Source of the DNA: Dudresnaya verticillata
Taxonomy: Eukaryota
DNA length: 64,000 nt
Direction of reading: 5' to 3'
Assembly: GCA_977862235.1 (NCBI GenBank)
Contig: OZ374562.1
Coordinates: 2,294,001-2,358,000 of the forward strand
Shown here one piece after another: positions 8,888-59,091 of the stretch. Within the stretch, counting starts at the first letter, position 1; the number at the start of each line of letters is the position of its first letter. The notes under the pieces were generated by a model. The model was not told where the DNA came from. It ran no database searches and saw only the letters and a program-made list of their open reading frames with translations. The position numbers were made by a program, and so were the translations under genes.

Positions 8888-10018
8888 TCACGCTACATAC
8901 TCCTCGAAGCTAGGCGCAGGACAGCTGAAGTAGGTCGACACCTGTCTGCCCCTTTCGATGCACGTCTTGAAGTTCAACAGAAGTGCAGAGCCCACATATA
9001 GAAGCGCAATAGGGGCTTGGCGCACTTTCAGCATGCGTGCGTAGTCGTTGCGGGCGAACATTTGCTTCAAGTCCTTATAGTTCCATTCCACTGCCACGTG
9101 AACGGCACTCATCCGCTTGTTGAATAGTGACTGTTGTACTGTCACACCAGGGAACGCCACTTGAATCCACGAACGCAGCATGTACGCTGCATCGCCGTAA
9201 ATATAGTACTGCACCCCGTCGATAAGAAGGCAGCTATCCAGTACTTCTATGAGACCGCTGCGACGTAACAAGGTCATGTCGTGCCTTCTCCCGACCTCAG
9301 GGCCAAACAAAGAGAATATCAATCCATCCGGTGTTGTAATAGTCTGGTAGATAAGGCAGTGCATTCTCTTATGTCCCGAGTAGCATGATCTTTGTACTGT
9401 CCCATGTCCACCAGGACGACTCATCCTTATCTTTGTGCAGTCGATAAATCCAACACATCTATCCAAAGGGGCGCCCATGCCACTTATAGCACTGGCGTAC
9501 GTCGCAGCCCTTGCCTGCAGTAGACCAACCCTTACGTCCGCTACTAAATGTCCCTTGCTCGACACAAAGCTCTCCAGAACCTCCCAAAAAACCTCACTCA
9601 GTGCAGAACTGTGCATCCCAAACTTGGTCTCCATATCATACCATGTAGTAGCAGAGCTGAGCCTCTTCAGTACTACGCAGCAAGCTGTAATAGGATCGCA
9701 GCTGTAGCGATTTCTTTTTGTTGAGCCGGTTGTCCACTGCATTGCTGTGCATACGCGGCCTATGTCTTTCAGGCGAAAGCGGAAGTCATGTAGAGCCTGC
9801 TCATCTGAGTATGAGTTGAGGTTGAACTGCGTGTGCGCTATTGTCGATGCACGAATAGAGAGATTCTGCACGTCTACTCTGGCACGCTTTCTCCGCTGAT
9901 AGGCACGCAAAACAAGCGCTGGGGACGCATCGTTCACAACGCACGCTAGAAGGGCAGCGTTGTAGCGTCTCTTGCGCTGGCGGGCGTTGCCGACGGAGTA
10001 GTCCTCTCGCCGCACCAT
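8888..10018 (-). CDS. Harbinger/PIF DDE transposase (DDE_Tnp_4-like)
   Basis: Motifs GFIDCTKI, YSGHKRMHCLIYQ, GPEVGRRHD, YGDAAY, VAVEWNY. The frame is open from 10150; ATG 10018 (MVRRED) is a plausible start. Confidence 0.93.
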   Translation of the reverse strand: MVRREDYSVGNARQRKRRYNAALLACVVNDASPALVLRAYQRRKRARVDVQNLSIRASTIAHTQFNLNSYSDEQALHDFRFRLKDIGRVCTAMQWTTGSTKRNRYSCDPITACCVVLKRLSSATTWYDMETKFGMHSSALSEVFWEVLESFVSSKGHLVADVRVGLLQARAATYASAISGMGAPLDRCVGFIDCTKIRMSRPGGHGTVQRSCYSGHKRMHCLIYQTITTPDGLIFSLFGPEVGRRHDMTLLRRSGLIEVLDSCLLIDGVQYYIYGDAAYMLRSWIQVAFPGVTVQQSLFNKRMSAVHVAVEWNYKDLKQMFARNDYARMLKVRQAPIALLYVGSALLLNFKTCIERGRQVSTYFSCPAPSFEEYVA

Positions 10019-10451
10019 TTTGCCGCCCTGCACCAGGGGCATCAAGGTCAGTACGCAACCTGGCGGGGTAGTACTTACAAATTGATCCACATTCGATTGC
10101 GTAAACGACACTTTATTTTTCCTACCAAATTTCTTACGGTACTCAGGCACGCATGTGTCGACGAGGATTCCACGAGATTTTTGGCGTAAAGTCTCTATTG
10201 ACCTACTTTCCGATTAGTCGTTTTTAATTAACAGAAAATGACACTAAACGCAGGCATATTTAGTCCATTGCACCAGACATCGTATTAATTAGGAACGCTC
10301 ACATCAGTTAAAATGTATGCTATTTTGCGTTTGCCTCGAAAACGACTGTTTTAGTCGGTGCGACCCAGCCGGAGCACACTATCTTTCTCGACTGTTCAGA
10401 TCCGCCGAGAGGCTTCCCTCCCTTCTGCCTCCTCCGGTATCTCCCGCCATC

Positions 10452-16700: not shown

Positions 16701-18010
16701 GAATTACAATCCAAGGTTGTAAAGTATTGGGCGTTTCCCAGCGAGTCCAGACACTCGTCCATCCGCGGGAGAGGATAAGTGTCTTTCACTGTGATAGCGT
16801 TGAGCTTGCGGTAATCGACGCAGAAACGTAGGGACCCATCGGGTTTCTTGACCAGCACTACGGGGCTTGCGAACTCCGTTCGAGCAGGCTCGATGACGCC
16901 TTCTTTTAGCATCTTGTCTACTTCGTCTTTTTCGACTTGTCTAGTTTTCGGGCCCGACCGATAGGGTTGCGAGAATACAGGTTTCGAACCTTCTTGTAGT
17001 TCAATTCGGTGCTTCGTCACCTTGATTGTTCCCAGCTGGCCGTCCCACATACCGACGAACGGTCGGAGCATTTTTCGTACTCGACGACGGTCCGGCTCGG
17101 ACAGGTGCTCCAGTGCCAAGTCATCGACTGACATAGGAGACGGTGTAGAGGTTGCTGTTTTAATTCCAGGCTTTGCGCCTTCGCTACCAAGAGCAGCAGC
17201 GAGTCCCGCCCCCACACATTCAGCTTACACCGGCGTCCGGGTGGGCGCCGGTACAGCCTTTCCGAGGCTTTGATTCTTCTGAAGCTGCTGCATGCGCGGC
17301 GAGAAGTTCGCAACCTTCACGTGGAAGAGCCGATTCGATTGTAGATCGACGATACCGTTGGTCACAACCACATGTTGACGGTCGTATAACCGTGGAAATG
17401 ATTCTAGGAAGTGCGTTACTTGGGCCGAGCAGGTCACGGCGACCCATGTTTCACTGTCCGGGGGTAAGTTAGTGAGTTCAGCAACGCGGATTAGTCGCGA
17501 GTTAGGTAGGGGTGGGACATCCATTGGTTCCGAAAGGGGACCCTCACGGGGTATGCCACAGCGGCGTCTTAGGATTGGGTGTATCGACCCGTCGCGGAGA
17601 ACGATGTTCTGTTTCCGAACACGTAAACCCTCGACGTGGGTATCGATAAACGTGCATCCCAGGATGGCGTCCACTGCAAGTGCCTTGACGACAACAAAAG
17701 GTTGTCGAACCGTGTATGACCCCACGCGTACAACCAGTGAGATGGTCCCTAGAGTAGTTAGTCTATGACTTGACGCAGACGTCAAGTTGACGATCGACCT
17801 GTTCGTCGAGATGCGTTTCCTTTCTTCCGGAGAAAGAACGTCCGCCCGGATCAGATTAGGGCCAGCCCCTGTATCCAATACGGATAGTACTCGAGTGAGT
17901 TTGTCCACAGAAGTCCCGACGGATGCAGCAACTTCATAGTTGTAGCGTGACAGGGAACAGACTGGGTCCTTACAATACTCGTCATACGTACGCCCACGGG
18001 GTAAGCCCAT
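13735..18010 (-). pseudogene. Gypsy pol (PR-RT-RNase H-INT-chromodomain) with multiple frameshifts and stops
   Basis: LDTGAGPNLI (PR); FCVDYRKLN and YLDDII (RT); DACDYQIG and GEKECLAVVW (RH); GHPGG...CVKC, SDNGSQF, HPQTNGQTER (INT); YDRIV...YRIRW...DTWEP (chromodomain). Confidence 0.95.
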
Positions 18011-18178
18011 GGGGCGGGTTAAGATGTTCTCCGGAACAGAAGCGAAATTCTCATGTGAAACCGGTCGATCCGTGGAGAAGCTGTCGAAGCTTGTGCTAGT
18101 GAAGCTGCGCTCAGCGAATCGATCGGGGGTTCCGATGTAACCTGGGTGATCAGGTCAACCGAAACCGGTTCCCCCTCT

Positions 18179-19430
18179 CTAGTTTTTCGCCTTGAGCGCG
18201 GGCGACCGTGGTAACGGTGGTGGCGGCGGAAAAGGTCGTGACCCTGGTCTTGGTGACCGCGGCGCTTGCCTTGGCGCGTCGATGGAGTGATTCAGACCCG
18301 GATGAAATTGAACTTGCCTATTTCCGCCGGCGCCCGTCCCCATATTTTGACGCGTTCCTGTCGGTGGCCCAATCGCTTGGCCTGTCGAGGCCGGTCCATT
18401 TGCGAAGTAGGGCAGTCGCCCCACAGTTGCCAACCATGCCTTCTGCTCATGCGAGAGCTCTTGGAACTGCTTCCTTTTAGAGTCTCAAAAGAATGTTCGT
18501 CCGTTCGCGCTAGGTGAGGGCAATTTGGCTTTTTATGGCCGACGCCACAACACTCAAAGCGGATGTCATTTGGTTGGTCCTCGACCGTCTCGCCATCCAG
18601 GAAGCTGTGTCTTTGTTGGCTGAGCCAAGGCTGGGAGCCTATGGTTGTAGTTTTGGATGGCCGCATCCACTTCGCCATAATATGGCTGGCCATAGGAGTA
18701 CTGCCCGGAGGACCAGCTGTCTGATTGGGTTGCCGTTGATGGTGGCGCTTCTTCGTCTATAGCCGCGACGACGGCATCTTCGTCGTCGTCCTCAGAGTCG
18801 CTACTCTTTGAGGATTCGGAGTCAGATGCTCCCGATCGCCTCGACTGGCGAATGAGAAGTGCCCGACCAGGTTTGTGCGTCCGTACCTTCGCGAGGGTTT
18901 TCTTGTGCAGCGTCGAGGTCGCTTTCTTCGCTCGGCCACCACCCACTAGGACACGATGAGAATCTCCCTGGGCGGTGGTGCGCTCGACATAATCTGTCAA
19001 CCGGGCCGTCCGTGGGTCCGGAGAGGTAGTGCTTAACAGCGGTTTCACCGCGGGGAGAAGACCCCTAATAAAGTGTGTTATTAAGTCTTGCTCTGTGTAG
19101 ACAACAGCGACTCGTCGCGCCTGATTTTGCAACCGTCGAGAGAAGGTGACCTCGTCCTCATTCGGCTCTTGTGCCATCGTGTCCATATCACAGACGATCC
19201 TCTCGATGTAGACATCTTTCGCATACGTGCGAAGAAGGTAATTGACGGCCTCGGCCCACTCAGTGAATCCACCATTATCATCTCCTGCCGCGTCGAAGTT
19301 CGCTTCAAACATGTCTTTGGCATCTTTCTCCAGAAATTCTGGGATGACAAGGATAGCTGCTCCTTCACTAATGTGAGCTTGGTCCAGCTGTCGTTTCAGC
19401 GTTGCGAGAAATCCAAGAATAATACCGTCG
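18179..19430 (-). pseudogene. Gypsy gag (continues at ~20337-20443 and ~31839 onward, across insertions)
   Basis: ILGFLATLKRQLD...EGAA...AVNYLLRTYA, homologous to the gag at 21947-23341; zinc knuckle CFECCGVGHKKPNC near 18520-18560. Confidence 0.85.
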
Positions 19431-20331
19431 TGTGGTGCAAGGGGAGGTGAGCCCTTTTTCGCTGAAAGCGGGCAGACCAAATACGTCGACCGACGGAGAA
19501 ACCGCCACCGGCGCTCACCACCGCCGTTGGCGCGCGAACACGTCATCGACGGCTCACTGGGGCGCGCGCGCACACTGCGCGCCGCGCGCCACGCGGGCAC
19601 TGTACGGTGATGGCCCGACGTGGCGCCCCGGGGCACTGTAATATGGATCCAGATGGGATCCGGATCCGGTATCCAGATTGGCTATCCAGATCGCCTAAGC
19701 CGTAAGATACGCGCCTATAAGGCTGCGGGTATTCGCATTGCTGGCCCGATCCGGACGGGATCGGGATCGAACAAGTATCGGATTAGATCCAAGGCGCACG
19801 CTCTACAATATGCGCGCGCGCACAGCTGTAAGGCACACGCGTCCACGTGTGCGTGGAAGCACCCACACAGGGGGTTGTACAGCAACCTGTCAGGCGCGCG
19901 GCTGCATGCGATGGGTGATCTGTCAGACGCACCTCGGGACGACACGTGTCCCGAGTTCCCGCGCTACGCACAGGCACTGCCGTCGCCGCACAGCCGTACT
20001 ATACTTAGGTAAGCCGTCCCAGACATAACAGTAAACGCCCGGGCAAGCCGGCCTTGGTCCAGACTTCCCGTTCCGCACGCGCGTACCCTACCGCTGCCTA
20101 CGGCTCAAGCGTCTACCTCCCGTGCTTCCACGTCTACCATCGTCCTTGACGTGTTCCCTTTCTGTTTCCTTTTCCCTTCCTTTCCGCCTCGGGCGTTTAC
20201 AGTCCGCCCAAGGCGTGTCCTTTGCTCTACCAACAAGTCGCCCACGGCGAGGCTACTCACCGCCAAGGGCGCAGCTACCCACCGAGCCCCGAACTGCTCG
20301 GCGGTCTATCGTCTCAGACGTTTGCACCAAA
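19431..20331. mobile_element. Solo LTR, same family as 901-1804
   Basis: TGTGGTGCAA...TTGCACCAAA; TSD CGTCG (19426-19430 and 20332-20336); colinear with 901-1804. Confidence 0.94.
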
Positions 20332-20448
20332 CGTCGTTTTCGGGGTTACGGGCGATTCTGGCCACGCAGTCTTTGCGTAATGCGCGCCAGTACAGCCCGT
20401 ACAAGGACGTATCATTTTGTACAGATATTACGATAACCTGTTGAGGTT

Positions 20449-21123
20449 TGTGGTGAAGTGAGCCGTGGCGCGCATGCGGCCCACCGACGGCGAGCCAACC
20501 GTAACGGGTGATGTGGCAATACGCCACGCTGATGATCTGGCAACGTGTAACCGTGTCGGATGTTGTGCGCATTGCTGTACGCCGGTACGCATTGCTGTAC
20601 AGCAGTGAAGCGCACCAACCATACCGGAGTATTTGTAGTGTTTATTCTTTATTTTTAGTGAGTATCTGTACAGTATGTAGAGTAGTGCGCCAGCCAATGA
20701 GAATGCTGCGCATGTCCGTGTCGGAGATTGGGACCAGCAGGGCCGATTCCACCATAGGACCAGACCACTAGGGTCTGGCCCCCACGGACTGGACCGCTCG
20801 GTGCCACCTTGACTTGTATATCAGGGCGGCACCGCAGCGGCTCCTAAGGTAAACGGGTAAGCAACCTTAGCCCAATCCTTTACGGTTTTCCCCGCGCCGA
20901 GCCCGTTGCGGTCTACCACCACCACCGTTACGGAGTCCGTCCCGGCACTCGTACCACCCCCTTGTCTGTTGCTTCCCAATATCCGTCTCGGTTAGCCGCT
21001 AGCTGTTCTCCCGTTACGGTGCGAACTGCTCTACCACCCCGTGGAAGTAGTGTTGCTCTCGTCCGTTAAGGAAAGTCAGGCCAGCTGTCCGTCTCGGAGT
21101 TCGTGGGTTTTCACTACACCACA
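20449..21123 (+). repeat. 5' LTR of the inner Gypsy element
   Basis: TGTGGTGAAGTGA...TCACTACACCACA; direct repeat of 31151-31833. Confidence 0.97.
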
Positions 21124-21271
21124 TCTTTTGGTCTCCCGACCTAGAACACCGTCACGGTTGGAAGAAACAGCCGTCGAAATCCGCTACGGTAGGAATTCGG
21201 CTGTACCGACAACCCGTTACGGAATATTGGATAGACAAGCAAGAACAACCGTTGTGTTCCGTTAAGGTATC

Positions 21272-23744
21272 ATGCAGAACGAAGAACACGCAGACCCTCC
21301 CGTTACGGAACCTAAAGCGGGTGGCACTACCCCGGCTGCGCGCAGTCTGCGCAGTGAAGGAGGTGAAATCCGTTCCGGAGTGGAGAACCCACAAGACATC
21401 CTAAAGGGTGCTGCTGGTAAAGCTCCCCGTTCCCGTGTCGGATCAGACGCCTCCAAGAAGGCAGCTCCGCAACCCAAGCCGGAATCCCATCGGGTCCACT
21501 GGGTCCTGTCGGAGGTCCTTCCTAGGGTGTTAGAGCATCTCCGATTGGAAGTACAACCTGGAATGGTAAAAGAGGTGGAGATATCCCTCTCGGAAACTGT
21601 TCCGTCTTTGGTTAATTCCTATCTGGAGCAGCACCTTCCTCGGATAGTGCAAGCTCTGATCCTACAGGAAAAGGTGGCCGCCGAGCTCGAGAGCCAGATT
21701 GCTCCCGGCATGGCAAGGCCTCCCGCTACGGAAGCTTTCACTGAGCAACCACCGTTACGGAATGACTTCCCGGTCGAGGGAAGAATGCAGCAGCCGCAAC
21801 AACCCCCCGTTATGGGATTGCCGCCGGGCACAGTACCCTCTGGGCCACTGTCACCGGCTCCCGTAACCGATTCTCAACATCAATAAGCCCCTACGGGACC
21901 AACACACACTCAGCCACCGTTACGGTATTCACCTGGACACGTAGATATGCCTACGCCAGGGCGCTATCAGCAAGAGCGCTATACCGTTCCGGTTCGATCA
22001 GGTGGAGGCAGCGACCATCTCAGCGATGCGTCCAGCTCACCCCATCCGAGTCGGAGGACCGGTCGAGGTCGGCATAAACGAGATGCCCGACACTCCCGCT
22101 CTGACCCTCCCCGTCGGTCGCACATGGGCGACCACACCCAGCGACGACGCCACCAATCCGGTAAGGAATCCAATGAGAGCAGCTCAGAGGATAGCCAACA
22201 CCGCCGCCGCAAGAGGAGAAACAGAAGATCGCGGAAACGCGAAAAAGGGCATGAGTCCTCTACCTCTACGGATTCAGACTTAGAGAGTTCTTCCATAACG
22301 GATAGAGAGAATAGGCACCGGGCCAGAAAACACGGTGCCAATTCCGGAAAGGTGAAGGTAATCCGGCCGCTACATGACAAGTTTGTCAAGGCGCTGGACT
22401 ACCGCACCTACCGATTGGATAAGAGGAGTAAGACATACGGCTCTAAGTTCTCACAGAACATGAGCCGTAGGAAGAAACTCGACGTCCAGATGTCGTCCCA
22501 TACATTCGATGGGACGGACCCTATTACCGTCTTGGGATTTCTCGCCAAGTTCCGTGACGGTTGTAACATCAACGGCATCGCCGAAGGGGTTGCCGTCTGG
22601 TGCTTGCAGTTTTTCCTTAAAGGACAGGCCGAAGCCCTTCTACAGGCTAGGCTTGCTGGAGGTACCACGGCGGTTGACGTGGAGCAGGCTGAGATGCTCC
22701 GCACATATTCCGAGGTGGTGAACTTTTTATTGAGAACCTACGCTACGGATGAAGTGATTGCTGAAGCCTGTACGGATGTCAGCAACTTCAGGCAAACATC
22801 CGCCATAACGGAAGAGCAGTTCTCGAACCAGCTTTGGGCCAAGGCTCTCCGTTGCGGTACAGTATTTTCCGATCGGGCATTGAAGTCACTGTTCGTCGAA
22901 GGACTCCTACCGGGCACTCGTCAACAGATGAGAAATTATCTGGCGACGCATTCCCAGTTGGATTATCAGGCCATCACTCGCTATGCGACTGGCCCCGGTC
23001 AGTCCCATCGGGCAGCTCGACGCCAAACCGTTCCGGCTCACGTCTTTGATGGGCGTAATAAAGCACGCCCGTCTAAGGTGTTGTCGCTGGATTCCGTATC
23101 GGATATACACTATGAGCCGCAAGGGAATCTTTCCGCTACGGATAATCAAGTGCTAGCCGTCGAGGGAGGCCACGGTGCCGCTACGGGAACGAGCACGGGG
23201 GTTACCTTTTCTACCCCGTACTCCTCGCCCCCGCAAAGCGTCCACCCTACTCCGCCCAGGATGCCACGCGCGCATGGTCCCCCCTATGGTGGATCTCGCC
23301 CGGCTCCTGGCCCCCAACAGCAGTCACCGTTACGGAAATAATGCCCACGATGGGCGAGGACAGCAGCAACCAGCACCTCCGCTACGGGATGAGTCGGATC
23401 CTCGGGTCCGACGCCTTTCAGGGAGTGGTAACTGTCGCATCTGCCTTTCACCAGAGCACGTTGTTTGTCCCTGAATACATGACTCCGATCGGGTTAGGCT
23501 TATGGAAGAGCGCGAGCGCAACTTCCAGAAACACTACCCTGTAGGTCGCAGGTTCGTAGTAGGAACCAGTTCGAATCCGCAAGGGAATCGGGGCAGGCCG
23601 CAAACGCCCCCTCCGCAACGGAATGCCCCGATACTATCGGTGGAGGACCATGACGGAGTGGAACTCGCAGAATTGCGCGAGCCCATGGAGGCGGATCCGA
23701 CTGGTGCAACCTTGAATTCGGAAAACTCAAGGGGGGATGCGTAA
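21272..23744 (+). pseudogene. gag of the inner Gypsy element (in-frame stop at 21884-21886, frameshift before ~23340, stop at 23472-23474)
   Basis: ORFs 21272-21886 and 21947-23341 share a frame; FDGTDPITVLGFLAKF gag motif; knuckle-like CRICLSPEHVVCP in a shifted frame. Confidence 0.87.
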
Positions 23745-23788
23745 GGGCGCCGCCATCCCCGCCTCACGGCGTTCCACCTCTCGCGAGT

Positions 23789-24454
23789 GTGGACCCGCCA
23801 GGGGATCGGCGAGATACCGTTACGGAACTCCCATTGGCTTATCAGACCAATGATACTATCTTCTTTATGCAACATCAAAATTACAAGATGCAAATTACCG
23901 TAGGACGGACAGATACCGTGATGCTTCCTTTAATCCCCGTCTTGGACTCTGGCGCTGGGCCCAATCTCATTAGTGCCAGGCGCCTTCCGCGCCAATGGCT
24001 CCCACTCATACGCCCAGCAGCCAGTCCTCCATTACGGGATGCGTCTAATCGCGCTATACGCCCTCTTGGTCAGATACAACTTTTCGTCCGTATCGGAGAG
24101 CTCCGTGCTCGCGTCCAGTTTCTAGTGGTCGCCAACTTGGCGGCTCCCTGTATTTTGGGAACTACCTTCATCGGCCGCTACGTGAAGGCAATACTCCCTC
24201 CGTTACGGAAAGTTGTTTTTCATCATTACCCACCGGTATCCCTTGTTGGTCAAGCCAAAATTCCGAAGACGGGAACCACTGCAACCCTACAGCCCTCACC
24301 TCTCTCTACCACTACGGTTTCTCAGAAAATTCGTTTAGCAAAATCTACCCTTATTCCCCCTATGAATCAAACCACCGTACCGGTTAATACCCCATGGGTG
24401 GGTTATGCTTTCTACAAAATCATCCTAAGCCGGCTTTTAAGCACCTTACGTTAA
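23789..24454 (+). pseudogene. Aspartic protease of the inner Gypsy element (frameshifted from RT)
   Basis: VLDSGAGPNLI and CILGTTFI retropepsin motifs. Confidence 0.9.
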
Positions 24455-24533
24455 TGGCTAATGGTATTATGGATGTTGTACCTAACAACCGTTTCGGATC
24501 TGGGTCTCTAATTTTTCTAACAAGCCGGTACGG

Positions 24534-27500
24534 TTGCCCAAATCTACTGTCGTGGGCCTCGCTACTGCTGCCCCCTCTGCTATTTTTACCGTTGACGGTA
24601 TACCTCCATTTAAGGAGGGGGGAGGAATTATTCAATCATTTAATTCTAACCCTACCTCCGAAAAGGCCAGCAGCATCTCCCCTCACGACAAGGAAGTAAG
24701 CAAACCCGTAACGGAAAATACAAATACTACCGACTGGAAGGATCAAGTCCAGATCGGCACAGAAGAAGCATCGCTCCGCAAACGGATTTTAACCCTACTC
24801 GAGGAATATAAGTCGATGTGGAGTGGCGATCTGGGCAACATTACAGCTGCCAAGCACCGCATCGAGTTAACTCCCGGAGCTAAGCCAGTATACCAAGCCC
24901 CATACCGTGCCGGACATAAGCAGCGAGATCTCGAAAAGGCAGAGATCGATCGCATGCTTTCCGCTAAGGTAATTGAACCAGCCTCATCGGAGTGGGCCAG
25001 CCCCGTGGTTTTCGTTCCAAAAAAGGACGGCACCATGCGGTTCTGTGTTGACTATAGAAGGCTCAATTCCGTAACGGTTAGGGACTCATATCCCTTGCCC
25101 AGGATGGATGAGTGCATAGATTCCCTTGGGGAAGCTACTGTATTTACCACCCTGGATTGCAATAGCGGATATTGGCAAGTCGAGATTCCGGAAGAGGAAA
25201 GGGACAAAAATACCTTCACTAGCCATTTTGGCTTATACCGTTTTCGGAGAATGCCATTCGGATTGAAAAATACACCGGCAACCTTCCAACGGGCAGTTGA
25301 TATAATCCTTTCTACGGTTAAATGGCAATTTGCCCTCGTCTACCTAGACGATGTAATTGTCTACTCAAAAACCGTTACGGAACATTTCCACCACCTGAAG
25401 GAAGTCCTTACGCTTTTACGATCCGCTGGAGTAACGTTGAAATTGTCAAAGTGTGACTTCTTTAACGCGTCTGTACAATACCTGGGGCATGTTATCCGTC
25501 CCGGAAAATTAGAAGTGGATAATCGAAATATCCAATCCGTTAAGGTCGCGAAGCCGCCGACTAACCAAACGGAATTGCGATCCTTCTTGGGAATATGCAA
25601 CGTGTATCGTCGCTTTGTACCCAACTTCACTCGGATTTCAGCTCCGCTAAATAACAAAACCGGCAAGGGCTCACCCTTTGAGTTTGGAATATTATCCGAT
25701 ACGGAATATGAAGCCTTCGAAGAACTGAAGAGACGCCATATCTCTCCACCTATATTAGATCTACCCCGTCACGGATATAAATATACGTTGGACACGGACG
25801 CATGTGACCACCAAGTCGGCTGTGTCCTTCTGCAGGAACAACCGAATGGCGATCAACTCCCTATTGGATATTGGAGCCGAAGCCTCACCGATGCGGAGAA
25901 AAATTATACGACAACCGAAAAGGAATGCTTAGCCGTGGTCTGGAGCATTTCAACACTCCGACCCTACCTTTACGGTGACAAGTTTATTCTCCGAACGGAT
26001 CACGATGCCCTGCGGTGGATCCTGAACCTCGCAGACTCATCTGGCCGCCTTGCCAGGTGGAGGCTCCGCCTATCGGAATTTGAATTTGAGGTGCAATACC
26101 GTCCTGGAATTAAGCATCAACTCGCCGATGGGATGTCGCGACTCCGAACGGATGGCGGTGACGATAGACCTTTGGATGAAGAGATACCCTGCTTTATCGC
26201 CGAAAATACCGTCGACGGATTATATGAGCATGGAGTTTCTTTAACCGATTGGGCTACATCACAAGAAACCGCTACAGAAAATAACGTAATATGCGCCGTG
26301 GAGCCCGCCAGTGGGAGCGCATCCGCCTCCCCTGATAAGCCCGACGCAATACCGTCACGGTTTACTGTAATCCAAGAATCCGACGTTAAGGATGAGACAA
26401 TTACCAGGGAGGAGTTCCTCGAAGCGCAAGCCAGAGACCCTTTCTGCCGTCTCAAAGCCGATACGGTAGGCTCCCCTGGATCACAGTTTGACTATGACCG
26501 TAACGGATTCTTGGTACGCAAGTCCCAATTGGATGGCGCTCTACAGAAGGTGGTGCCAAGCGAACTCCGTGGACGGGTATTGTATTTATCCCACTACACC
26601 CTGATGTCGGGTCACCCAGGCGGCATTAAGATGTATTATACACTCCGACAGGATTATTATTGGCCTCATATGGCCAACGACGTATTTGAATCCGTTCGGA
26701 CATGTCGCTCCTGCGTGAAGACAAAGGGAACCCGCTTTCGGAATCAAAGGTTTATGAAACTTTTCCCCGCTAGCGGACCTTTGGAGTTTGTCGCTATCGA
26801 CATTCTCGGGCCACTTCCGAAGACAAAACGGGGTTATGTCTACGTCTTGGTAATTACCGATCGGTTCTCTAAGCTGACGCGCTGTATTCCGTTACGGACA
26901 ACAACAGCCGTTGTGGTGGCTAATGCCTTTCTGGACTTTTGGGTGTACGCCTACGGCGCACCCCAATTTGTCCTAACCGATAACGGACCGCAGTTTACTG
27001 CTAAGTTCTTCGACGCGGTGTGTTCCTTACTCGGATTCAGGCACCTGCTCACAGCTGCCTATCATCCGCAGACAAATGGGCAAGCCGAGCGATTTAATAA
27101 GACAATCGCCCAACGGTTGCGCCATTACGTCGAGGATCATCACTCCGATTGGGATTTGCACCTGCAGCCGTTGACATATGCGTACAAAATGCAGGTACAC
27201 CGTATCACGGAAACAACGCCATTCAATTTGGTGCTGACACGCCACCCATCGGATATTGTTGTACGAGGGGCTCCTGTCGAGCATCAAGAAACCGTTACGG
27301 AAGGGCGTATGACCCCGGTGCTACAGAAGCGGAGCACCATGCGCCGTTTACGGTACGCGCTCCAGACAGCGCGCACAAAGCCGACAGTGGCTCAGCAAAA
27401 AGCCAAGGCACTGTTTGACCGTAAGGTGCGCTTTAGGCCCATAATCCGAAGCGGAGATCAAGTCTATGTCGACCGGCCGCCCCATAACTTGCGGCCGGCC

Positions 27501-28061
27501 GAACGCCGTGAGCGGGACCGATTGGAAGGCAAACCGGACGATGTGGGCGAAGTGGCTCAGGAAATGAAGAAACTCCTTCCGAGAGCCACGGGGCTTTATG
27601 AAGTGGAATCCGCAACGGAACATGTCGTGACAATCCACAAGGAAGGGGTATTGATCCCCGTGAGTATCGATCGCATCACGAAGGTTCCGATCGGAGTTGC
27701 GGTTCAGCCGGCACCCTTAACAGTGCCGCCTGTCACGCCATCAACCGTCTACGGAGAAGTAGTGCCACATCCAGAAGGTACTACAGTAGTACCTCCTTCT
27801 GAAGGTACTACTCCCTCCGCGACGGAACCACTGCAAGCCGATACGGAATATGTGATCGACAAGATTGTCGGTCACCGCGACGAACCTACTGGGATGACAT
27901 ACAAAGTCCGCTGGTATGGTTACCCTCCGGATCAGGACACTTTTGAGCCCGCGGAGGAGTTACCGCAGAACTTCATCTACCGATATTGGAAGCAAAAGAA
28001 AAATACATCCGCTAAGGGTAAGCCACGGCGACGTGCTAATCCAGCAAGTCACTCACCGTAA
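24534..28061 (+). CDS. Gypsy pol: RT-RNase H-integrase-chromodomain (1175-codon open frame)
   Basis: FCVDYRRLN, YLDDVIV, TDACDHQVG, TEKECLAVVW, H-x4-GHPG...CRSC, TDNGPQF, HPQTNGQAER, EYVIDKIVGHR...YKVRWYGY...DTFEP. Confidence 0.96.
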   Translation: MPKSTVVGLATAAPSAIFTVDGIPPFKEGGGIIQSFNSNPTSEKASSISPHDKEVSKPVTENTNTTDWKDQVQIGTEEASLRKRILTLLEEYKSMWSGDLGNITAAKHRIELTPGAKPVYQAPYRAGHKQRDLEKAEIDRMLSAKVIEPASSEWASPVVFVPKKDGTMRFCVDYRRLNSVTVRDSYPLPRMDECIDSLGEATVFTTLDCNSGYWQVEIPEEERDKNTFTSHFGLYRFRRMPFGLKNTPATFQRAVDIILSTVKWQFALVYLDDVIVYSKTVTEHFHHLKEVLTLLRSAGVTLKLSKCDFFNASVQYLGHVIRPGKLEVDNRNIQSVKVAKPPTNQTELRSFLGICNVYRRFVPNFTRISAPLNNKTGKGSPFEFGILSDTEYEAFEELKRRHISPPILDLPRHGYKYTLDTDACDHQVGCVLLQEQPNGDQLPIGYWSRSLTDAEKNYTTTEKECLAVVWSISTLRPYLYGDKFILRTDHDALRWILNLADSSGRLARWRLRLSEFEFEVQYRPGIKHQLADGMSRLRTDGGDDRPLDEEIPCFIAENTVDGLYEHGVSLTDWATSQETATENNVICAVEPASGSASASPDKPDAIPSRFTVIQESDVKDETITREEFLEAQARDPFCRLKADTVGSPGSQFDYDRNGFLVRKSQLDGALQKVVPSELRGRVLYLSHYTLMSGHPGGIKMYYTLRQDYYWPHMANDVFESVRTCRSCVKTKGTRFRNQRFMKLFPASGPLEFVAIDILGPLPKTKRGYVYVLVITDRFSKLTRCIPLRTTTAVVVANAFLDFWVYAYGAPQFVLTDNGPQFTAKFFDAVCSLLGFRHLLTAAYHPQTNGQAERFNKTIAQRLRHYVEDHHSDWDLHLQPLTYAYKMQVHRITETTPFNLVLTRHPSDIVVRGAPVEHQETVTEGRMTPVLQKRSTMRRLRYALQTARTKPTVAQQKAKALFDRKVRFRPIIRSGDQVYVDRPPHNLRPAERRERDRLEGKPDDVGEVAQEMKKLLPRATGLYEVESATEHVVTIHKEGVLIPVSIDRITKVPIGVAVQPAPLTVPPVTPSTVYGEVVPHPEGTTVVPPSEGTTPSATEPLQADTEYVIDKIVGHRDEPTGMTYKVRWYGYPPDQDTFEPAEELPQNFIYRYWKQKKNTSAKGKPRRRANPASHSP

Positions 28062-28356
28062 CGGACAGTTGGAATGCTGGGGTGTGAGAACACACAACGT
28101 TTATCGCAAGCTAAGATCGAGGCATAATGGAAACCGTTAAGGAGATCGTCGAGCTGTAACTCTAAGAGTTACGTCGACCCCGTTTCGGAGCAGGGGCAAC
28201 TGTATCTTCCTTGTTGCTCCCCTGACCCGTTCGTAGGCCGGGTTCCCCACTCGGATCCGATTGGAATACGCGCTGCGTAGTGTCTCCCAAGACGCGAACC
28301 GCACTGTCCATGCGCCGACGCTGACGACGGACCACCGCGCGGAGATGAATTACCTG

Positions 28357-30843
28357 TTACATCAGCCCCTCCGTTAAGGTTAACACTTCCTGAACGGATC
28401 CTGGTAATGGGAAGCGCTGCGTACGGCAAATGCCCCGTAGCACCTGTAACCCACTTTCCGTAGCGGCTAAATGAGCCGGAACCGTAACGGGGGGATCCTC
28501 ATCTTCTTGTAACTCTACCTTCGGGGAGATCGACGGCTGATCCCTAACCCCGGCTTCAAGTGAATGCTCCGTTGAGGAAACTACCGATACGGACGGTCCC
28601 GACTCGGGTGAAGGTACGTCCTTCCGCAGCGGTGGATCTGTGTCCTTCTCTGGCGAGGCAGTATCGCTTTTCCGTAACGGTTCAGGACTTGGCGCAAGAA
28701 CCGAGGGCTTGTCGCCAGTTGCCCCAACACTTGGGCGCCTTGCAGCCACTTCCGATACGGTGATCGACGCCGCATTCCCCGCTGGTGTGGGAGTGGGCGG
28801 CAAAAGCGGAGCACTTGGTGGGGGCGGTTCCGCGGCGGCAGGCATTTGCGTCGCAGGAGACAGTGTCGCCCGCACAGTATCCGGCGCCACTTCCGAAACG
28901 GTCTGCCCCTTTGAGGCCCCCTTCTCGGATGGTGCCGCAGACTTGGGCACCGCCATAGTCGGCGCAGCCACGCCCATGGGCGTTGGGGCCTTATCCGATA
29001 CGGGAGTAGTAGTCTCACGATCCACATCGCGCGACGTGGGTGTCGCGACCACCGGAAAAATTGGAGCGGGCGTCTTCTCGCTACCCGCTACCATCGAGGC
29101 GACGGGCGTGACCTCCTCCTGTTCTTCCAAGAAGGGGTCAGCTTCTTGCTGCCTCACCGTAACGGAATCGCGTGGGTCGATTGTACGCGGACGCCCCGCT
29201 GTCCCATGACAGCTTCCCCAATCTTCAGCCCCATCCAAACCGTCACGGTACGCATCCCTTGGTGCTTGGCGAGAGGCATAGTCCCGATGGGCCTGCACCT
29301 CTAAGGCCAACCATTCCGGACGCGGATCTTCTCGATGAAGGAAATATGGCTCACCCACCCCGGGCCTAAGCGGAGGCACCGATAGGACACGGTCCTCGTC
29401 CCAATTATACCCCAAGAATCCCGGAGTGCGTTGCCAATCTTGCTCTCCGTGTACGGATAAAAGACGCTCAACCCGATGGAGAGGGTATGCCGACCCCGTC
29501 ACCAAATCGGCTACGCCGACTTCGCGAATTAGGGCGATCACCGTTACGGGAAGTTGAAAAATACGGCCACAGTCTCCTCCAGGCAGGTCATCCTCATCCC
29601 GTGGGAAACATCGCCAGTCCGCTAACTTGGTGTTATACCGTACTCCGTAATAGGCCACCTGGAGCCACGAGAAGAGCACCAGCATGGCCCATTCCGATCG
29701 GAAGATTCGCCACAGTACATCGAGCTGATCTTGGTTCGGGGGACGTTCTCCGTTCGGATGCTTGTCGTTCCACTCCCGTTCGGTGAGTAAGTCCGCCGAG
29801 AAGTACGCTACGACGGACGGCGTGGGGACAGACAACCAACGGGTCACCTCATAACGCGCCCACCATGACGGAGCTGTAAGGTACAATTCACGACGCACCC
29901 GATACGGAAGATGGAAGAACTCCTTAGTGTTCCAATTATGCAGGATTGGCGAGCCAACTTGTATTCCGTCACGGGAAAGAGTTCGCAAACGGTGTTCCGT
30001 CGCGGCATCGTCCTTCCACCCATCGGCATAGCGGAACCAATATACCGATTGGTCATAGGGGCGGTCGAAGCAAATGAATTGCACTCCGACCGGCGCACCC
30101 CGAAGACGGAAACCTGTGGCCAACAGGTGACTCACCTAGGCGGTATATCCTACCTCCCCATGGCAGCGATACCACAACAAATCCGAAACGGTAGAGGTTC
30201 TCGCTTGACAATAGCCATGCACCCATCGGCTTTGCCACACAAACTCTCTCCGATTCGGAACAACGCCAATGCGTTGATTCGCCTTGAAGGGTTGCGCCAT
30301 GACGGCCTTGTACCTTCTCGCTTCCAAGACGGTTGGATACTTCTCAATGAAGAGGTCCACCGTCATCGGGGGCCTAATCTTAGCCCTTTCCGCATCGGTT
30401 CTAGCCGGGCGCCCCGCGCGATGGTCAAAGTGGTGTCCCGGCCAATAACCACTCGGGGCAGGGCCCTCTCCGTCACGGGTATGCACTAACGGCCACCAAG
30501 GCCCCGGTGCAGGTGGGTTGCTTTGCGGGGGGCCACGCATCCGTCTCGGTGTACTTGAGGAGGGATGAGGACTGGAAACCATCCTACGACTCGGCGTCGA
30601 TACCGGTGTCGATGGTGTCCGTAACGGAATGGCCGGTAGGTTTGCCAAGTTGAGCTCCTCGCCAGCACGACGGAACGCATCATCGCGCTCCTTGGTTGGC
30701 GCCTCTCCGTCACGGTGAGTCTCTGCACTCCCTGGTAGCAAGGGCCTTGTGGCAGCGCTCGCAGCAAACCGATTCGGATCATAGACAGACCACCCTCGGC
30801 TCGCTGATGGAGCCGGTGAAGGTTCCGTCACGGCAATGCTCAT
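28357..30843 (-). pseudogene. Extra antisense ORF of unknown function (~828 codons, one in-frame TAG at 30136-30138)
   Basis: ORFs 30136-31407 and 28357-30135 are contiguous and in frame; plausible ATG at 30843; Trp/Tyr-rich globular middle followed by a P/S/T/A-rich tail; lies between pol and the polypurine tract. Confidence 0.8.
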
Positions 30844-31150
30844 ACGACCGCCCGTCGCGGGTCGCGTCGCTGCCGCTGAGGTAGAAGCCGGCGCTTGCGT
30901 CGAAGCATCCGTAACGGTTCGCGCGCCCTGCGCCCGCGTAGTGGAAGCGGCGCGGGAACGCCGTGTCGGTTGAAAAGGCGACGGTGAGCGCTTGATCTTC
31001 TCCCCTGACGTGGTGGGAGAAGCGCGCAAAAAGGGGAAGGGGTTGATGAGAACACTTCCGTATCGGGCGTGGCTGTGTGTGGGAGTGGAAGAAAAGGTAA
31101 TCCGTGACGATGGGCGCCCGAGGACGTGGCGCCATTTAAGGAGGGGGGCC

Positions 31151-31833
31151 TGTGGTGAAGTGAGCCGTGGCGCGCATGCGGCCCACCGACGGCGAGCCAA
31201 CCGTATCGGGTGATGTGGCAATACGCCACGCTGATGATCTGGCAACGTGTAACCGTGTCGGATGTTGTGCACATGTGCGCATTGCTGTACGCCGGTACGC
31301 ATTGCTGTACAGCAGTGAGGCGCACCAACCATACCGGAGTATTTGTAGTGTTTATTCTTTATTTTTAGTGAGTATCTGTACAGTATGTAGAGTAGTGCGC
31401 CAGCCAATGAGAATGCTGCGCATGTCCGTGTCGGAGATTGGGACCAGCAGGGCCGATTCCACCATAGGACCAGACCACTAGGGTCTGGCCCCCACGGACC
31501 GGACCGCTCGGTGCCACTCTGACTTGTATATCAGGGCGGCACCGCAGCGGCTCCTAAGGTAAACGGGTAAGCAACCTTAGCCCAATCCTTTACGGTTTTC
31601 CCCGCGCCGAGCCCGTTGCGGTCTACCACCACCACCGTTACGGAGTCCGTCCCGGCTCTTGTACCACCCCCTTGTCTGTTGCTTCCCAATATCCGTCTCG
31701 GTTAGCCGCTAGCTGTTCTCCCGTTACGGTGCGAACTGCTCTACCACCCCGTGGAAGTAGTGTTGCTCTCGTCCGTTAAGGAAAGTCAGGCCAGCTGTCC
31801 GTCTCGGAGTTCGTGGGTTTTCACTACACCACA
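31151..31833 (+). repeat. 3' LTR of the inner Gypsy element
   Basis: Direct repeat of 20449-21123. Confidence 0.97.
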
Positions 31834-32118
31834 AGGTTCTCAAAGAAGGGGCGTCAATCCGCGACTAGGATGTGCTCGTTGAACTTAACAAACCACCACG
31901 GCGGTAGGGGTGCTTGCACTAGATTTGACGTGACTCCAGCGCTTGATATGAAGCTTAGGGACCGTTGTCACCCGGATGACTAGGGTTTTAACGTCAGGTA
32001 GTCGAACATTGAGATCTTGCAGGGACAAAACTCGATCCTTGAAAATTCCAAAGCGATGGACTGACGTTGAGGTAATAAAGGGAACCGACCCAGAACCGAT
32101 TCTAGGTCCGGAAACCAC

Positions 32119-32811
32119 TGTAGTTGTATGGTGCGAGTAGCCAGTAGCCCGCTAAACGGAAAGGACAGCTGTCCCGTGCACGCACAACCCTAACGAGGGT
32201 AGCTCAATGGGGAGTTGGTAGAGACTTTGAGGGAAAAGGGGAAAAAGGCTAGCGTGCCTGAAAGAAAGGGAAAAGGGGCGGCGCCACCCTAACACTCGTA
32301 GAGTACAAAGCCGTACGAGGCTAAAGCTTGTAAAGCACCTGGAAGGGGGAGCACGGTGAGCCCGTGTAGACCAAAGAAAGGGGTACAGACCCGAAACCCA
32401 CCGTAGGGTTCTATTCAGCAGACCCCTGCTACTCAGGGGCGCAACAAATATGGCGAAGGCCGAAAGCGCCTTCGTCGCTATTCCTATTCTAAGCTATTGA
32501 AGTTAGCGTTAATAATTACAATGAGGTAGTAGTGAGCGGTCGTACTCCGCCCTGCGCACGTAAGGTGCTTATAACTCGGGCGCGCTCCGGGCGTAAGGCC
32601 ATGGTAAATCAGCCAATCACGGCTAGCCATCTCATTGGCGTCGTGCTGTTCCCAGCAATGCCATACAGAGTGGCCAGCAATGCATTGGGCCTTACAGCGC
32701 ACCAGCACGTGCAGCGCCTTACAGGCGCATGCCACGCGCAATATTACCCGCGCATTACAGGCGCAAAACACGTGTACGTGCTTACAGCCGCTGGCGGCTC
32801 ATTGTACCACA
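32119..32811 (-). repeat. 5' LTR of the outer Gypsy element
   Basis: Direct repeat of 5666-6356; followed on the minus strand by G-TGGTTTCCGGACCTAGAATC (PBS-like). Confidence 0.95.
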
Positions 32812-46154: not shown

Positions 46155-46275
46155 ATACACGTGCACAGCGCAGCCGCGCTCCCAATGCACGTGTACGTAA
46201 AGCCATTTCCCTCCATTTAGCCCAATCAGCGCTCCCCGTCTCTCACACAGTCTCGAGACACCCGTCGTATAAAAC
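46155..46275 (+). promoter_or_regulatory. Putative Pol II promoter (two CACGTG boxes, CCAAT, TATAAAA)
   Basis: CACGTG at ~46158 and ~46188, CCAAT at ~46222, TATAAAA at 46268-46274, about 100 nt upstream of ATG 46376. Confidence 0.5.
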
Positions 46276-46375
46276 AACGTCCGCCGCCCTTTCTCTTCGT
46301 TCCCGCTCCGCCCCCCCCCCCCCCCCCCCCCCTCCCGACCCCATCCGCCGCACTCCACGGCACCCGCTCCATCCG

Positions 46376-50310: not shown

Positions 50311-50465
50311 TGTCGGTTCAGCTTGGGGTTGTTGGTCCGATGTCGGCCCGAAGTGGGCACAGGTTGGACCGGAGGGGTAGTTCTTGAGATGATAACCGGC
50401 CTCGGCACGCGGTGTGCTGCGTACGGAGGTCGAAGCACACGCCGAGGGCCGGGGCGTATCGTGCT

Positions 50466-50515
<50 letters not shown>

Positions 50516-51584: not shown

Positions 51585-52128
51585 TGTGGTGAAGCGGCCG
51601 TTTCGGAGTGCGGACGACGGTTGAGCCGATCCGCGCCCGGCGCAGTGGTGAGCTGGCGCCAAAAGCCGAAACGGAGTGCAGCGACATAGTTGCACTGTAC
51701 GCCTTGGTGGAGTCTGCGCGCACCACCAATAGGAGTCAAGTGGTTGATTTATTTGTACTTAGGTAATTGTAATGATGCTGTACAGTACGTAGTGTCAGCC
51801 GGCCAATGAGAATGCCGAGCATGTCCGCAACGGTGACCGGGACCAGTAGGGCCGGACCCACCTGGTGGACCAGACCCATTGGGGTCTGACCCACACGGAC
51901 CGGACCGCGGGGCGTATCTCCCAGTATATTAATGGGTGGCCACCGCGAGTCCTACAGTAAACGGGTACGCAACCCTGGGCAAAGTGACTTACCCTAAGCC
52001 TTACCCTCATACTCCTTTACGGTTTCCCCTCGCCAGCCCCGTGCACGGATTCCTCTTACCTCCGTCCCGGTGTAGCTGTCCTGGCACTGTACCGTCCCCC
52101 TTGTCTGTTGCGTCCCTTTACTCCTTAC
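51585..52128 (+). repeat. 3'-truncated Gypsy-type LTR, same family as 58417-59091
   Basis: Starts TGTGGTGAAGCGGCC and is colinear with 58417-58959, then breaks off. Confidence 0.9.
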
Positions 52129-58416: not shown

Positions 58417-59091
58417 TGTGGTGAAGCGGCCGTTTCGGAGTGCGGACGACGGTTGAGCCGACTCGCGCCCGGCGCAGTGGTGAGCTGGCGCCAAAAGCCG
58501 AAACGGAGTGCAGTGACACAGTAGCACTGTATGCCCTGCTGGAGTCTGCGCGCACCACCAATAGGAGTCAAGTAGTTGATTTATTTGTAATTAGGTAATT
58601 ATAACCATGCTGTACAGTACGTAGTGTCAGCCGGCCAATGAGAATGCCGAGCATGTCCGCAACGGTGACCGGGACCAGTAGGGCCGGACCCACCTGGTGG
58701 ACCAGACCCATTGGGGTCTGGCCCACACGGACCGGACCGCGGGGCGTATCTCCCAGTATATTAATGGGTGGCCACCGCGAGTCCTACAGTAAACGGGTAC
58801 GCAACCCTGGGCAAAGTGACTTACCCTAAGCCTTACCCTCATACTCCTTTACTGTGTCCCCTCGCCAGCCCCGCGCACGGATTCCTCTTACCTCCGTTCC
58901 GGTGTAGCTGCTCTGGCACTGTACCGTTCCCCTTGTCTGTTTCGTCCCTTTACTCCTTACAGGTGTTGCCGCTCGAGGTACTCCCTTCGGTCTACGAACT
59001 AAGCTCTACCACCCCGGTGCCGTGTGAGATCACTCCTTATTGGGATTGCCTGATCAGCTCTCCTTGCAGGTGTGCCTTTCACTTCACCACA
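58417..59091 (+). mobile_element. Solo LTR (675 bp), distant relative of the inner Gypsy LTR
   Basis: TGTGGTGAAG...CTTCACCACA; TSD ATAGT (58412-58416 and 59092-59096); shares blocks (CCAATGAGAATGC, TAAACGGGTA, CCCTTGTCTGTT, CTCTACCACCCCG) with 20449-21123. Confidence 0.94.

What the first reader, a model, noticed from the sequence alone, without database searches (positions are those of the whole stretch)
20449..31833. One LTR retrotransposon is tagged end to end with a private palindromic DNA motif, CCGTWACGG
Seen: about 25 exact copies of CCGTTACGG/CCGTAACGG, counted by eye, plus roughly 20 one-mismatch variants (CCGTCACGG, CCGATACGG, CCGCTACGG) in LTRs, leader, gag, pol and the antisense ORF. 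I noticed no exact copy in the other 52 kb. Uniform-base expectation is 2 x 11385 / 4^9, about 0.09 copies. Inside pol the motif occurs in all three codon phases (acc gtt acg g = TVT; ccg tta cgg = PLR; c cgt aac gg = RNG), so it is a nucleic-acid signal, not a protein repeat. Established: Arabidopsis VANDAL transposons accumulate short family-specific motifs bound by their own VANC anti-silencing proteins; CCG-Nx-CGG is a typical dimeric-factor site; TAACGG is a MYB core. Inference: this is a self-recognition barcode for an element-encoded factor (best candidate: the antisense ORF) or a host factor, acting in anti-silencing, activation or packaging. I know of no description of this in a Gypsy element.
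Basis: partly seen in the sequence, partly recalled or inferred. Interest (0 to 1): 0.92.

Follow-up and report, generated by a model that had tools for sequence, protein, structure and literature searches.

The report
Retrotransposon barcoded with symmetric docking sites
A jumping gene, likely from a red seaweed, carries about ninety copies of one short mirror-symmetric DNA word inside its own genes and ends, and these are likely docking sites for a protein, most likely an unknown one that the element encodes on its opposite strand, which would let it recognise its own copies.

Summary
Observation confirmed and stronger than reported. The 11.4-kb chromodomain Ty3/Gypsy element holds 25 exact CCGTWACGG (0 in the other 52.6 kb). 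The real unit is CC(G)-N3-(C)GG: 84 CCG-N3-CGG in 10.7 kb, against 6.4 in dinucleotide shuffles. It uses 17 of 22 coding positions that allow the exact motif (0.6 expected), and the antisense protein is bent towards motif-compatible peptides. The sites are read by sequence, not as hairpins, are not MYB cores, and did not arise by tandem repeats. A 75%-identical solo LTR keeps the arms of three sites and changes their middles, so the motif is not strictly private. The antisense ORF, broken here by two stops, belongs to an unnamed family (107 clusters; Gracilariopsis members) with a confident model and no fold match. It lies downstream of pol in related elements. Relatives carry other two-fold symmetric signals (CG-N3-CG, 12-bp palindromes, long hairpins), but some with the antisense gene carry none. 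Best reading: docking sites for an element-encoded, likely dimeric protein, a VANC-like logic in an LTR retrotransposon (about 0.4). Binding and function are untested.

The parts
20444..20448 (+). target-site duplication AGGTT, left copy
20449..21123 (+). 5' LTR (TG...CA); 10 CCG-N3-CGG, 3 of them exact
21129..21146 (+). candidate primer-binding site (starts TGG just after the LTR; not matched to a tRNA)
   Evidence: sequence
21266..23341 (+). gag-like ORF, interrupted by one in-frame stop at 21884-21886; 15 CCG-N3-CGG; no Pfam gag hit but homologous to the ORF before pol in related loci
23654..24454 (+). protease ORF piece (weak gag-asp_proteas, E 0.013), in a different frame from the RT ORF
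24486..28061 (+). pol: RT, RNase H, integrase, chromodomain; 19 CCG-N3-CGG, 6 exact
28162..30843 (-). antisense accessory ORF from ATG 30843, broken by in-frame stops at 30138-30136 and 28359-28357; the frame runs on to a basic, NLS-like end; 25 CCG-N3-CGG in 28357-30843
29329..30381 (-). conserved globular core of the antisense protein (about 350 aa; model pLDDT 88.5, pTM 0.90; no Pfam, PDB-sequence or fold match)
31138..31148 (+). polypurine tract before the 3' LTR
   Evidence: sequence
31151..31833 (+). 3' LTR; 668 of 675 aligned columns identical to the 5' LTR plus one 8-bp indel; 10 CCG-N3-CGG, 2 exact
31834..31838 (+). target-site duplication AGGTT, right copy
20499..31729 (.). dispersed array of the dyad CC(G)-N3-(C)GG, consensus W-CCGTWACGG-W: 25 exact copies, 94 CCG-N3-CGG counting both LTRs, mean gap 127 bp
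58417..59091 (+). solo LTR of a sister family (TSD ATAGT; 459 of 614 aligned bases identical) with 4 CCG-N3-CGG, 3 at orthologous positions with arms kept and middle changed
51585..52128 (+). truncated second copy of the sister LTR, 4 CCG-N3-CGG

Best explanation
The element carries a dispersed array of two-fold symmetric sites, CC(G)-N3-(C)GG, in its LTRs and in all its reading frames, and these are likely docking sites on double-stranded DNA for a likely dimeric protein, most likely the element's own antisense-encoded protein, which would mark copies of this family as self and would likely keep them out of host silencing. Shown: the array, its excess over codon-preserving controls, its sequence grammar, the unrelated flanks of its copies, its absence from other elements, and a conserved antisense gene.
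For: Selection inside coding sequence: 17 of 22 positions that allow the exact motif carry it (0.6 expected), against 0 of 19 in 11 control sets; such positions occur at 2.5/kb vs 0.2-0.6/kb. The antisense protein has 22 motif-compatible peptides vs 5.2 expected; the best of 44 other family sequences reach 8 vs 3.4 and 9 vs 3.5. Sequence read-out: outer-arm variants are depleted, wobble-type ones included (TCG..CGG 1 vs 4.3; CTG..CGG 0 vs 3.4); tolerated inner variants are not pairing-biased; flanks do not covary. Density follows freedom from coding constraint: LTR 14.8/kb, leader 21.1, antisense ORF 10.1, gag 7.2, pol 5.3. Arms are kept and middles changed at 3 orthologous sites of a 75%-identical solo LTR. 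Family specificity within one host: the window's left Gypsy and two Copia elements lack it; 3 exact copies in 121 related loci of 993 kb. L001, of the same tree clade, has the same geometry with another half-site (CG-N3-CG 68 vs 31.2, maximum of 300 shuffles 43). The antisense gene is conserved (107 clusters), lies antisense downstream of pol in relatives, diverges faster than pol (L084 vs L155: 30% vs 59%), and has a predicted C-terminal long helix in P0121 and basic tails in 18 of 41 long members (no background control). Precedent for the logic: VANC21 and VANC6 (PMC5735166).
Against: No binding, expression or chromatin data. The core has no known DNA-binding fold to lean on. The antisense gene is present in L062 and in the L003/L009 family, which show no significant dyad or hairpin excess, so the gene does not require a barcode. 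In other relatives the signal is structural rather than a fixed word: arms covary in L084/L085 (14 of 25 and 18 of 25 vs 6.5), and L157, L086, L158, L160, L082 carry long perfect hairpins. This points to a clade-wide pressure towards inverted repeats that a Gag-, RT- or mutation-level process could also explain. Five of the six pol sites lie on peptides that at least one of 11 relatives also has, so part of the pol opportunity is inherited. Two inner positions of the solo LTR changed to CCT..AGG, which also fits pairing. Only one full copy was seen, and its ORFs are broken.
Confidence: 0.4

Rival explanations
1. The dyad is a site for a host dimeric DNA-binding factor (for example a Zn2Cys6-type factor, whose everted CCG-Nx-CGG sites are recalled from fungi, not tested here). 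The element would have hijacked it along its whole length to stay open or expressed.
For: The grammar is that of a transcription-factor dyad with A/T flanks. It is shared by a sister LTR family in the same genome. Density is highest in LTR and leader.
Against: Other LTR elements of the same window do not use it (0, 0, 2 and 0 CCG-N3-CGG in four other terminal repeats). Related elements binned in one assembly (G001) show different signals, though those contigs may come from more than one alga. The MYB version fails: YAACGG outside the dyad 8 vs 13.0. Activation would not need sites deep in pol (inference).
Confidence: 0.22
2. The sites act on the genomic RNA or on single-stranded cDNA as dispersed recognition signals for Gag/nucleocapsid or RT (packaging, cis-preference), as the hairpin-rich relatives suggest for the clade.
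For: Many relatives are saturated with perfect stem-loops inside coding sequence, some with a loop preference (L160 CCGA 7 vs 1.1, reverse 1). Nine of the ten LTR sites lie beyond LTR position 100, six of them beyond position 450, and the leader is densest.
Against: For this element: no flank covariation; mean predicted pairing of the arms 0.16 on the plus and 0.14 on the minus strand; no hairpin excess once the motif is masked (z 0.8-1.3); G-U-type outer variants depleted; inner variants split evenly between strands. In the long-hairpin relatives L157 and L086, G-U stems are not enriched (z 1.3, 0.3), though they are in L084, L155, L160 and L072 (z 3.6-4.0).
Confidence: 0.2
3. No reader: the sites come from a sequence-biased mutational process of this lineage (for example RT template switching that perfects short inverted repeats) or from local duplication.
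For: Perfect Watson-Crick inverted repeats without G-U enrichment in L157, L086 and the window's left Gypsy fit a mutational origin. The clade as a whole tends to inverted repeats.
Against: Template switching is sequence-independent (established knowledge, recalled), yet here one word explains the whole excess (198 vs 147 three-base arms at spacer 3, against 63 vs 9 for the motif). Flanks of the 23 exact sites are unrelated (mean 6.4 of 24 identical), and only one tandem repeat without the motif was found. Amino acids are shifted towards the motif. The codons involved are not over-used outside the sites.
Confidence: 0.1
4. The antisense protein reads the sites, but to repress or limit the element (copy-number control or timing), not to protect it from silencing.
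For: Same anatomy as the best explanation. Antisense ORFs of plant elements are proposed to be regulatory, with function unknown (PMC7264820).
Against: No data on the direction of the effect. The only characterised precedent read here is anti-silencing (PMC5735166).
Confidence: 0.08

Closest known systems
VANDAL21/VANC21 and VANDAL6/VANC6 anti-silencing systems of Arabidopsis (PMC5735166; abstract and second half of Results read)
   Same: A short motif at high density in one transposon family and rare elsewhere; an element-encoded accessory protein as candidate reader; different motifs in related families; motif also found in a second element. A coiled coil is predicted to dimerise VANC21 (PMC13547354, passages), and a long C-terminal helix is predicted here.
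   Different: VANDALs are Mutator-like DNA transposons. Their motifs are mainly non-coding, in one orientation and multiplied by tandem repeats. Here the motif is a two-fold symmetric dyad written into gag, pol and the antisense ORF without tandem repeats. The protein shows no Pfam match to VANC domains. Binding and demethylation are proven there and untested here.
Antisense additional ORFs between pol and 3' LTR (aORF-3R) of plant Gypsy elements: Grande gene23, RIRE2, Retand TRP28 (PMC7264820 parts 1-2 of 3; PMC11963269 abstract)
   Same: Position and orientation; conserved across families; function unknown; nuclear or DNA-binding role proposed.
   Different: Retand is a non-chromovirus lineage with a Pfam domain; this family has no Pfam match and sits in chromodomain elements whose named relatives are red algal. 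The parts read describe no element-wide binding motif.
Chromodomain-bearing Ty3/Gypsy elements (chromoviruses; PMC3605345 and PMC2864245, search listing only)
   Same: LTRs, 5-bp TSD, RT-RNase H-integrase-chromodomain order.
   Different: Extra antisense gene and motif array; placement against named chromovirus clades was not tested.
Haemophilus/Neisseria DNA uptake sequences and cyanobacterial HIP1 (recalled, no call)
   Same: A short word accumulated inside coding sequence strongly enough to skew codons and peptides.
   Different: Those are genome-wide in bacteria; this one is confined to one transposon lineage of a eukaryote.

Membership tests
Ty3/Gypsy LTR retrotransposon with chromodomain | Two LTRs with TG...CA ends and a target-site duplication | tested here: met
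   20449-21123 and 31151-31833, TSD AGGTT
Ty3/Gypsy LTR retrotransposon with chromodomain | RT, RNase H, integrase, then chromodomain in pol | tested here: met
   Pfam RVT_1, RT_RNaseH, Integrase_H2C2, rve, Chromo above cut-offs
Ty3/Gypsy LTR retrotransposon with chromodomain | Placement in a named chromovirus clade | not tested
   The tree (quick method) held no named reference elements; nearest named protein is from Chondrus crispus (P0016)
VANDAL/VANC anti-silencing system | Short motif at high density, specific to the family | tested here: met
   shared with one sister LTR family
VANDAL/VANC anti-silencing system | Mutator-like DNA transposon as carrier | tested here: not met
   LTR retrotransposon
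VANDAL/VANC anti-silencing system | Motifs mainly non-coding, same orientation, in tandem repeats | tested here: not met
   63 of 84 sites are in ORFs, two-fold symmetric, with unrelated flanks
VANDAL/VANC anti-silencing system | Accessory protein with VANC domains (DUF1985, DUF287), by sequence | tested here: not met
   0 of 105 family members match such a Pfam family at E <= 0.01; only four coiled-coil families hit one member each
VANDAL/VANC anti-silencing system | Accessory protein with the VANC/MAIN fold | tested here: inconclusive
   Fold searches list no match; an unlisted family is not excluded
VANDAL/VANC anti-silencing system | Protein binds the motif and removes silencing marks | not testable with these tools
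   needs binding and chromatin assays
aORF-3R antisense accessory gene | Long antisense ORF between pol and 3' LTR, conserved across related elements | tested here: met
aORF-3R antisense accessory gene | TRP28/Transposase_28 domain as in Retand | tested here: not met
   no such Pfam hit in 105 members
aORF-3R antisense accessory gene | Antisense transcription and nuclear localisation | not testable with these tools
   only NLS-like tails seen; no sequencing run was listed
MYB (YAACGG) binding site | Core enriched independently of the second half-site | tested here: not met
   8 vs 13.0 +/- 3.3 outside the dyad; 10 CCGATACGG, 9 CCGTCACGG and 6 CCGCTACGG lack the core
Zn2Cys6-type everted repeat site (recalled) | CCG-Nx-CGG with fixed spacer | tested here: met
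   spacer 3 only; the third base is looser than the outer two
Zn2Cys6-type everted repeat site (recalled) | A host or element Zn2Cys6 protein that binds it | not testable with these tools
   no host genome; no such domain in the element ORFs scanned; the term was not found in PMC8304369 main text
Dispersed RNA hairpin packaging signals | Covarying stems, G-U tolerance, strand-specific loop | tested here: not met
   for this element; partly met in relatives L084, L085, L160

The most novel reading that the evidence does not exclude
A lineage of algal chromodomain Gypsy elements runs a self-recognition system: a previously unnamed antisense-encoded protein with a fold that has no solved match reads two-fold symmetric barcodes that each family has written into its own coding sequence. 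Protein and barcode would diverge together (CCG-N3-CGG, WCG-N3-CGW, 12-bp palindromes, hairpins), giving an LTR-retrotransposon counterpart of VANC anti-silencing and a natural library of new sequence-specific DNA binders.
Probability: 0.33. Interest if true: 0.92.

Novelty: new variant of a known kind. Interest (0 to 1): 0.78.

Why it matters
The function of antisense accessory ORFs in LTR retrotransposons is an open question (PMC7264820), and sequence-specific anti-silencing has been shown, in the papers read here, for VANDAL DNA transposons. This locus pairs a candidate target motif with a candidate reader in one element, and supplies relatives with different signals for swap tests, so the question becomes directly testable. 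Even without the mechanism, a transposon whose proteins have been reshaped by a DNA word, and relatives saturated with palindromes inside pol, were not found in the nine literature searches on this topic.

Tried and rejected
No host genome is held, so genome-wide counts and family copies were unavailable. No sequencing run was listed; this is no evidence on expression. Viral-contig scans found no relative. The word-index search with the downstream ORF piece found nothing, while the index-free search found 107 relatives. A third search covered only proteins of 1758-5000 aa and was uninformative. No Pfam, PDB-sequence or Rfam match. Fold searches of the core model gave no match: Foldseek PDB and viral 0 at E <= 0.001; VIA best Z 3.2, rmsd 6.2, 116 aligned. 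The P0121 model matched only generic long helices (best Z 5.0, rmsd 3.2, 49 aligned). The Atlas gave no usable hit. None of this proves a new fold, and sub-domains were not folded alone. Even spacing of sites is weak: P 0.06 for all sites, 0.07 for exact sites, 0.014 for one subset; not claimed. My first reading that L084/L085 carry a fixed second word (CTC-N6-GAG) was revised: their arms covary. CCC-N5-GGG in L081 partly lies in internal repeats, GGCGCC in L083 lies in local repeats and vanishes in the ORF test, and CGA-N2-TCG in L062 fails the codon control; none is counted as a barcode. The LTR pieces at 51585 and 58417 first looked like Copia LTRs; they are sister-Gypsy LTRs. A splice donor next to the first antisense stop was considered; homologues run through that point, so a broken ORF is the simpler reading. 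Peptide footprints in 120 pol relatives were not informative (mean 1.9 vs 1.7). Literature searches listed no description of this motif or of an element-wide motif in a Gypsy element; the library lacks most subscription papers, PMC9016345 was not held, and no supplements were read.
Full report
Observation. The window holds 25 exact CCGTWACGG, all in 20449-31833; 54 of 69 one-mismatch variants are also inside. Without the second LTR there are 23 exact copies against 0.21 expected from an order-2 model of the element itself. The unit is wider than the 9-mer: CCG-N3-CGG occurs 84 times in 20449-31150, against 1-16 for the twelve other spacers and 29 in the 52.6 kb outside, and 6.4 in dinucleotide shuffles (0 of 40 reach 84). 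In the ORFs it occurs 63 times against 9.1 in synonymous-codon shuffles, far beyond the best chance dyad. All three codon phases are used in pol.

The element. LTRs lie at 20449-21123 and 31151-31833 (668 of 675 aligned columns identical), with TSD AGGTT. Pol has RT, RNase H, integrase and a chromodomain. Named relatives are from Chondrus crispus and Agarophyton chilense, and P0016 from Chondrus is among the three nearest rows of a quick tree, so the host is likely a red alga (inference). This copy is broken: a stop in gag, a frame break between protease and RT, and two stops in the antisense ORF.

Grammar of the motif. The outer CC and GG are fixed: single changes there occur 0-5 times against 3.4-10.1 expected. 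Positions 3 and 7 tolerate change: CCA..CGG 15 vs 6.0, CCG..AGG 13 vs 4.8, CCG..TGG 8 vs 4.4, CCT..CGG 7 vs 3.9. Complementary alternatives are not favoured over these mismatches. Flanks prefer A/T but do not pair with each other (25 of 84 vs 29.8 expected at the first flank position). Predicted pairing of the arms is low on both strands (0.16, 0.14), and masking the motif leaves no hairpin excess. The MYB core alone is not enriched (8 vs 13.0). The 23 exact sites have unrelated flanks and lie in no tandem repeat. I read this as a strand-neutral site recognised by sequence and gained by point changes (inference).

Strength of selection. Of 22 coding positions whose amino acids allow the exact motif, 17 carry it (0.6 expected); in 11 control sets 0 of 19 do, and such positions are 4-12 times rarer. 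The antisense protein has 22 motif-compatible peptides against 5.2, unmatched among 44 other family sequences, some of them near-duplicates. Against this, 5 of the 6 pol sites lie on peptides shared with at least one relative. A solo LTR of a sister family (58417-59091, TSD ATAGT, 75% identical) has 4 CCG-N3-CGG against 0.31 (0 of 300 shuffles); at three orthologous sites the arms are kept and the middle has changed, while most other sites are lost or reduced to CC-N5-GG. The window's left Gypsy and two Copia elements lack the motif. The 121 loci (993 kb) hold 3 exact copies and the 18 contigs none. DNA of the nearest protein relatives was not available.

The antisense ORF. It starts at 30843 and its frame ends in a basic, NLS-like stretch near 28162. 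Its core has 107 relatives at 50% clustering, among them multi-copy hypothetical proteins of Gracilariopsis chorda, and the family profile spans the first stop. Homologues lie antisense downstream of pol in L062, L084, L155, L016, L072 and the L003 family. The core folds with pLDDT 88.5 and pTM 0.90; an intact relative adds a disordered linker and C-terminal helices. No Pfam, PDB-sequence or fold match was listed. It diverges faster than pol (L084 vs L155: 30% vs 59%; L084 vs L085: 43% over the shared C-terminal part vs 74%).

Relatives. L001, in the same 14-row clade, has CG-N3-CG 68 vs 31.2 without covariation: same geometry, other half-site, modest strength. L084 and L085 have CTC-N6-GAG 23 vs about 3 each, with 10 shared and 20 unshared sites in aligned parts and weakly higher arm conservation (20 of 28 vs 739 of 1577, P 0.012; P 0.05 for matched codons). 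Their signal, however, is a 12-bp palindrome whose arms covary. L157, L086, L158, L160, L082 and part of L016 carry 4-8 perfect hairpins of 7 bp or more per kb, against 0.7 here. L062, L003 and L083, the distant Gypsy elements and the Copia elements show no such excess. So two-fold symmetric signals are common in this lineage and differ by family, but they are of several kinds and do not track the antisense gene cleanly: L062 and L003 have the gene without a signal, and most long-hairpin contigs end too early to tell. These loci come from metagenomes and contaminated bins; G001 may mix hosts.

Mechanism. The best reading is an array of docking sites on duplex DNA for an element-encoded, likely dimeric protein, most likely the antisense product, which would protect the element along its whole length (0.4). 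Rivals are a host dimeric factor (0.22), recognition on RNA or single-stranded DNA by Gag or RT (0.2), mutational bias (0.1), and the same reader acting as repressor (0.08). Binding, dimerisation, expression and chromatin effects are untested.

Comparison. It would work like VANDAL/VANC, where short motifs at high density recruit the element's own anti-silencing protein (PMC5735166, abstract and second half of Results), but it is not a member: carrier, motif layout and protein domains differ. By position the gene is an aORF-3R, a class of unknown function (PMC7264820, parts 1-2 of 3; PMC11963269, abstract), without the Retand domain. Nine literature searches listed no report of this motif or of such an array in a Gypsy element (listings only). 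An earlier unchecked note of this scan reports a similar motif-saturated fungal retrotransposon; it is a lead, not support.

Verdict. A real and strong feature, a new variant of a known kind, with a concrete candidate reader and clear tests. Interest 0.78.

Noticed in passing
L157, L086, L158, L160, L082, L016:6900-16280, L072:1-3800: Related Gypsy elements are saturated with perfect inverted repeats (stems 6-15 bp, loops 3-10 nt) inside gag and pol, z 5-15 over synonymous shuffles where tested. L157 and L086 show no G-U enrichment; L160 loops favour CCGA on the genomic-RNA strand. This may be a finding of its own.
   Followed up: partly
L084, L085, L155, L156, L161 (contigs of G001): Short fixed-size palindromes with variable sequence: 4-bp arms with a 4-nt centre and outer C-G in L084/L085; 4-5-bp arms in L155/L156; 4-bp arms around a 3-nt centre, often GCN/NGC, in L161.
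   Followed up: partly
window 13801-19681 (-): A second, degraded chromodomain Gypsy element without the motif and without a detected antisense homologue, but with a hairpin excess (5-bp stems 76 vs 26.9).
   Followed up: partly
window 50317-51588 and 56747-57975: A 1.27-kb inverted duplication (94.8%) of the 3' end of the Copia element at 52612-57059, ending exactly at a truncated sister-Gypsy LTR at 51585; it includes a G-run of about 50 nt at 50465-50514. Could be a rearrangement or an assembly artefact.
   Followed up: no
window 5666-6356 and 32119-32811: A 690-bp direct repeat (96.7%, TG start) 26 kb apart that brackets the studied element and the left Gypsy; possibly LTRs of an older element with nested insertions.
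   Followed up: no
window 8888-10213 (-): DDE_Tnp_4 (Harbinger-like) transposase ORF.
   Followed up: no
window 45815-48487 (+): An 890-aa stop-to-stop ORF in a GC-rich region with no Pfam match.
   Followed up: no
G001 (record titled as a bacterial MAG), also G002-G005: These bacterial genome bins contain many eukaryotic LTR-retrotransposon contigs (31 pol matches in G001), which looks like binning contamination.
   Followed up: partly
window 30108-30147 (-): A perfect splice-donor-like GTGAGT directly follows the first antisense stop; homologues run through this point, so it was not pursued.
   Followed up: partly
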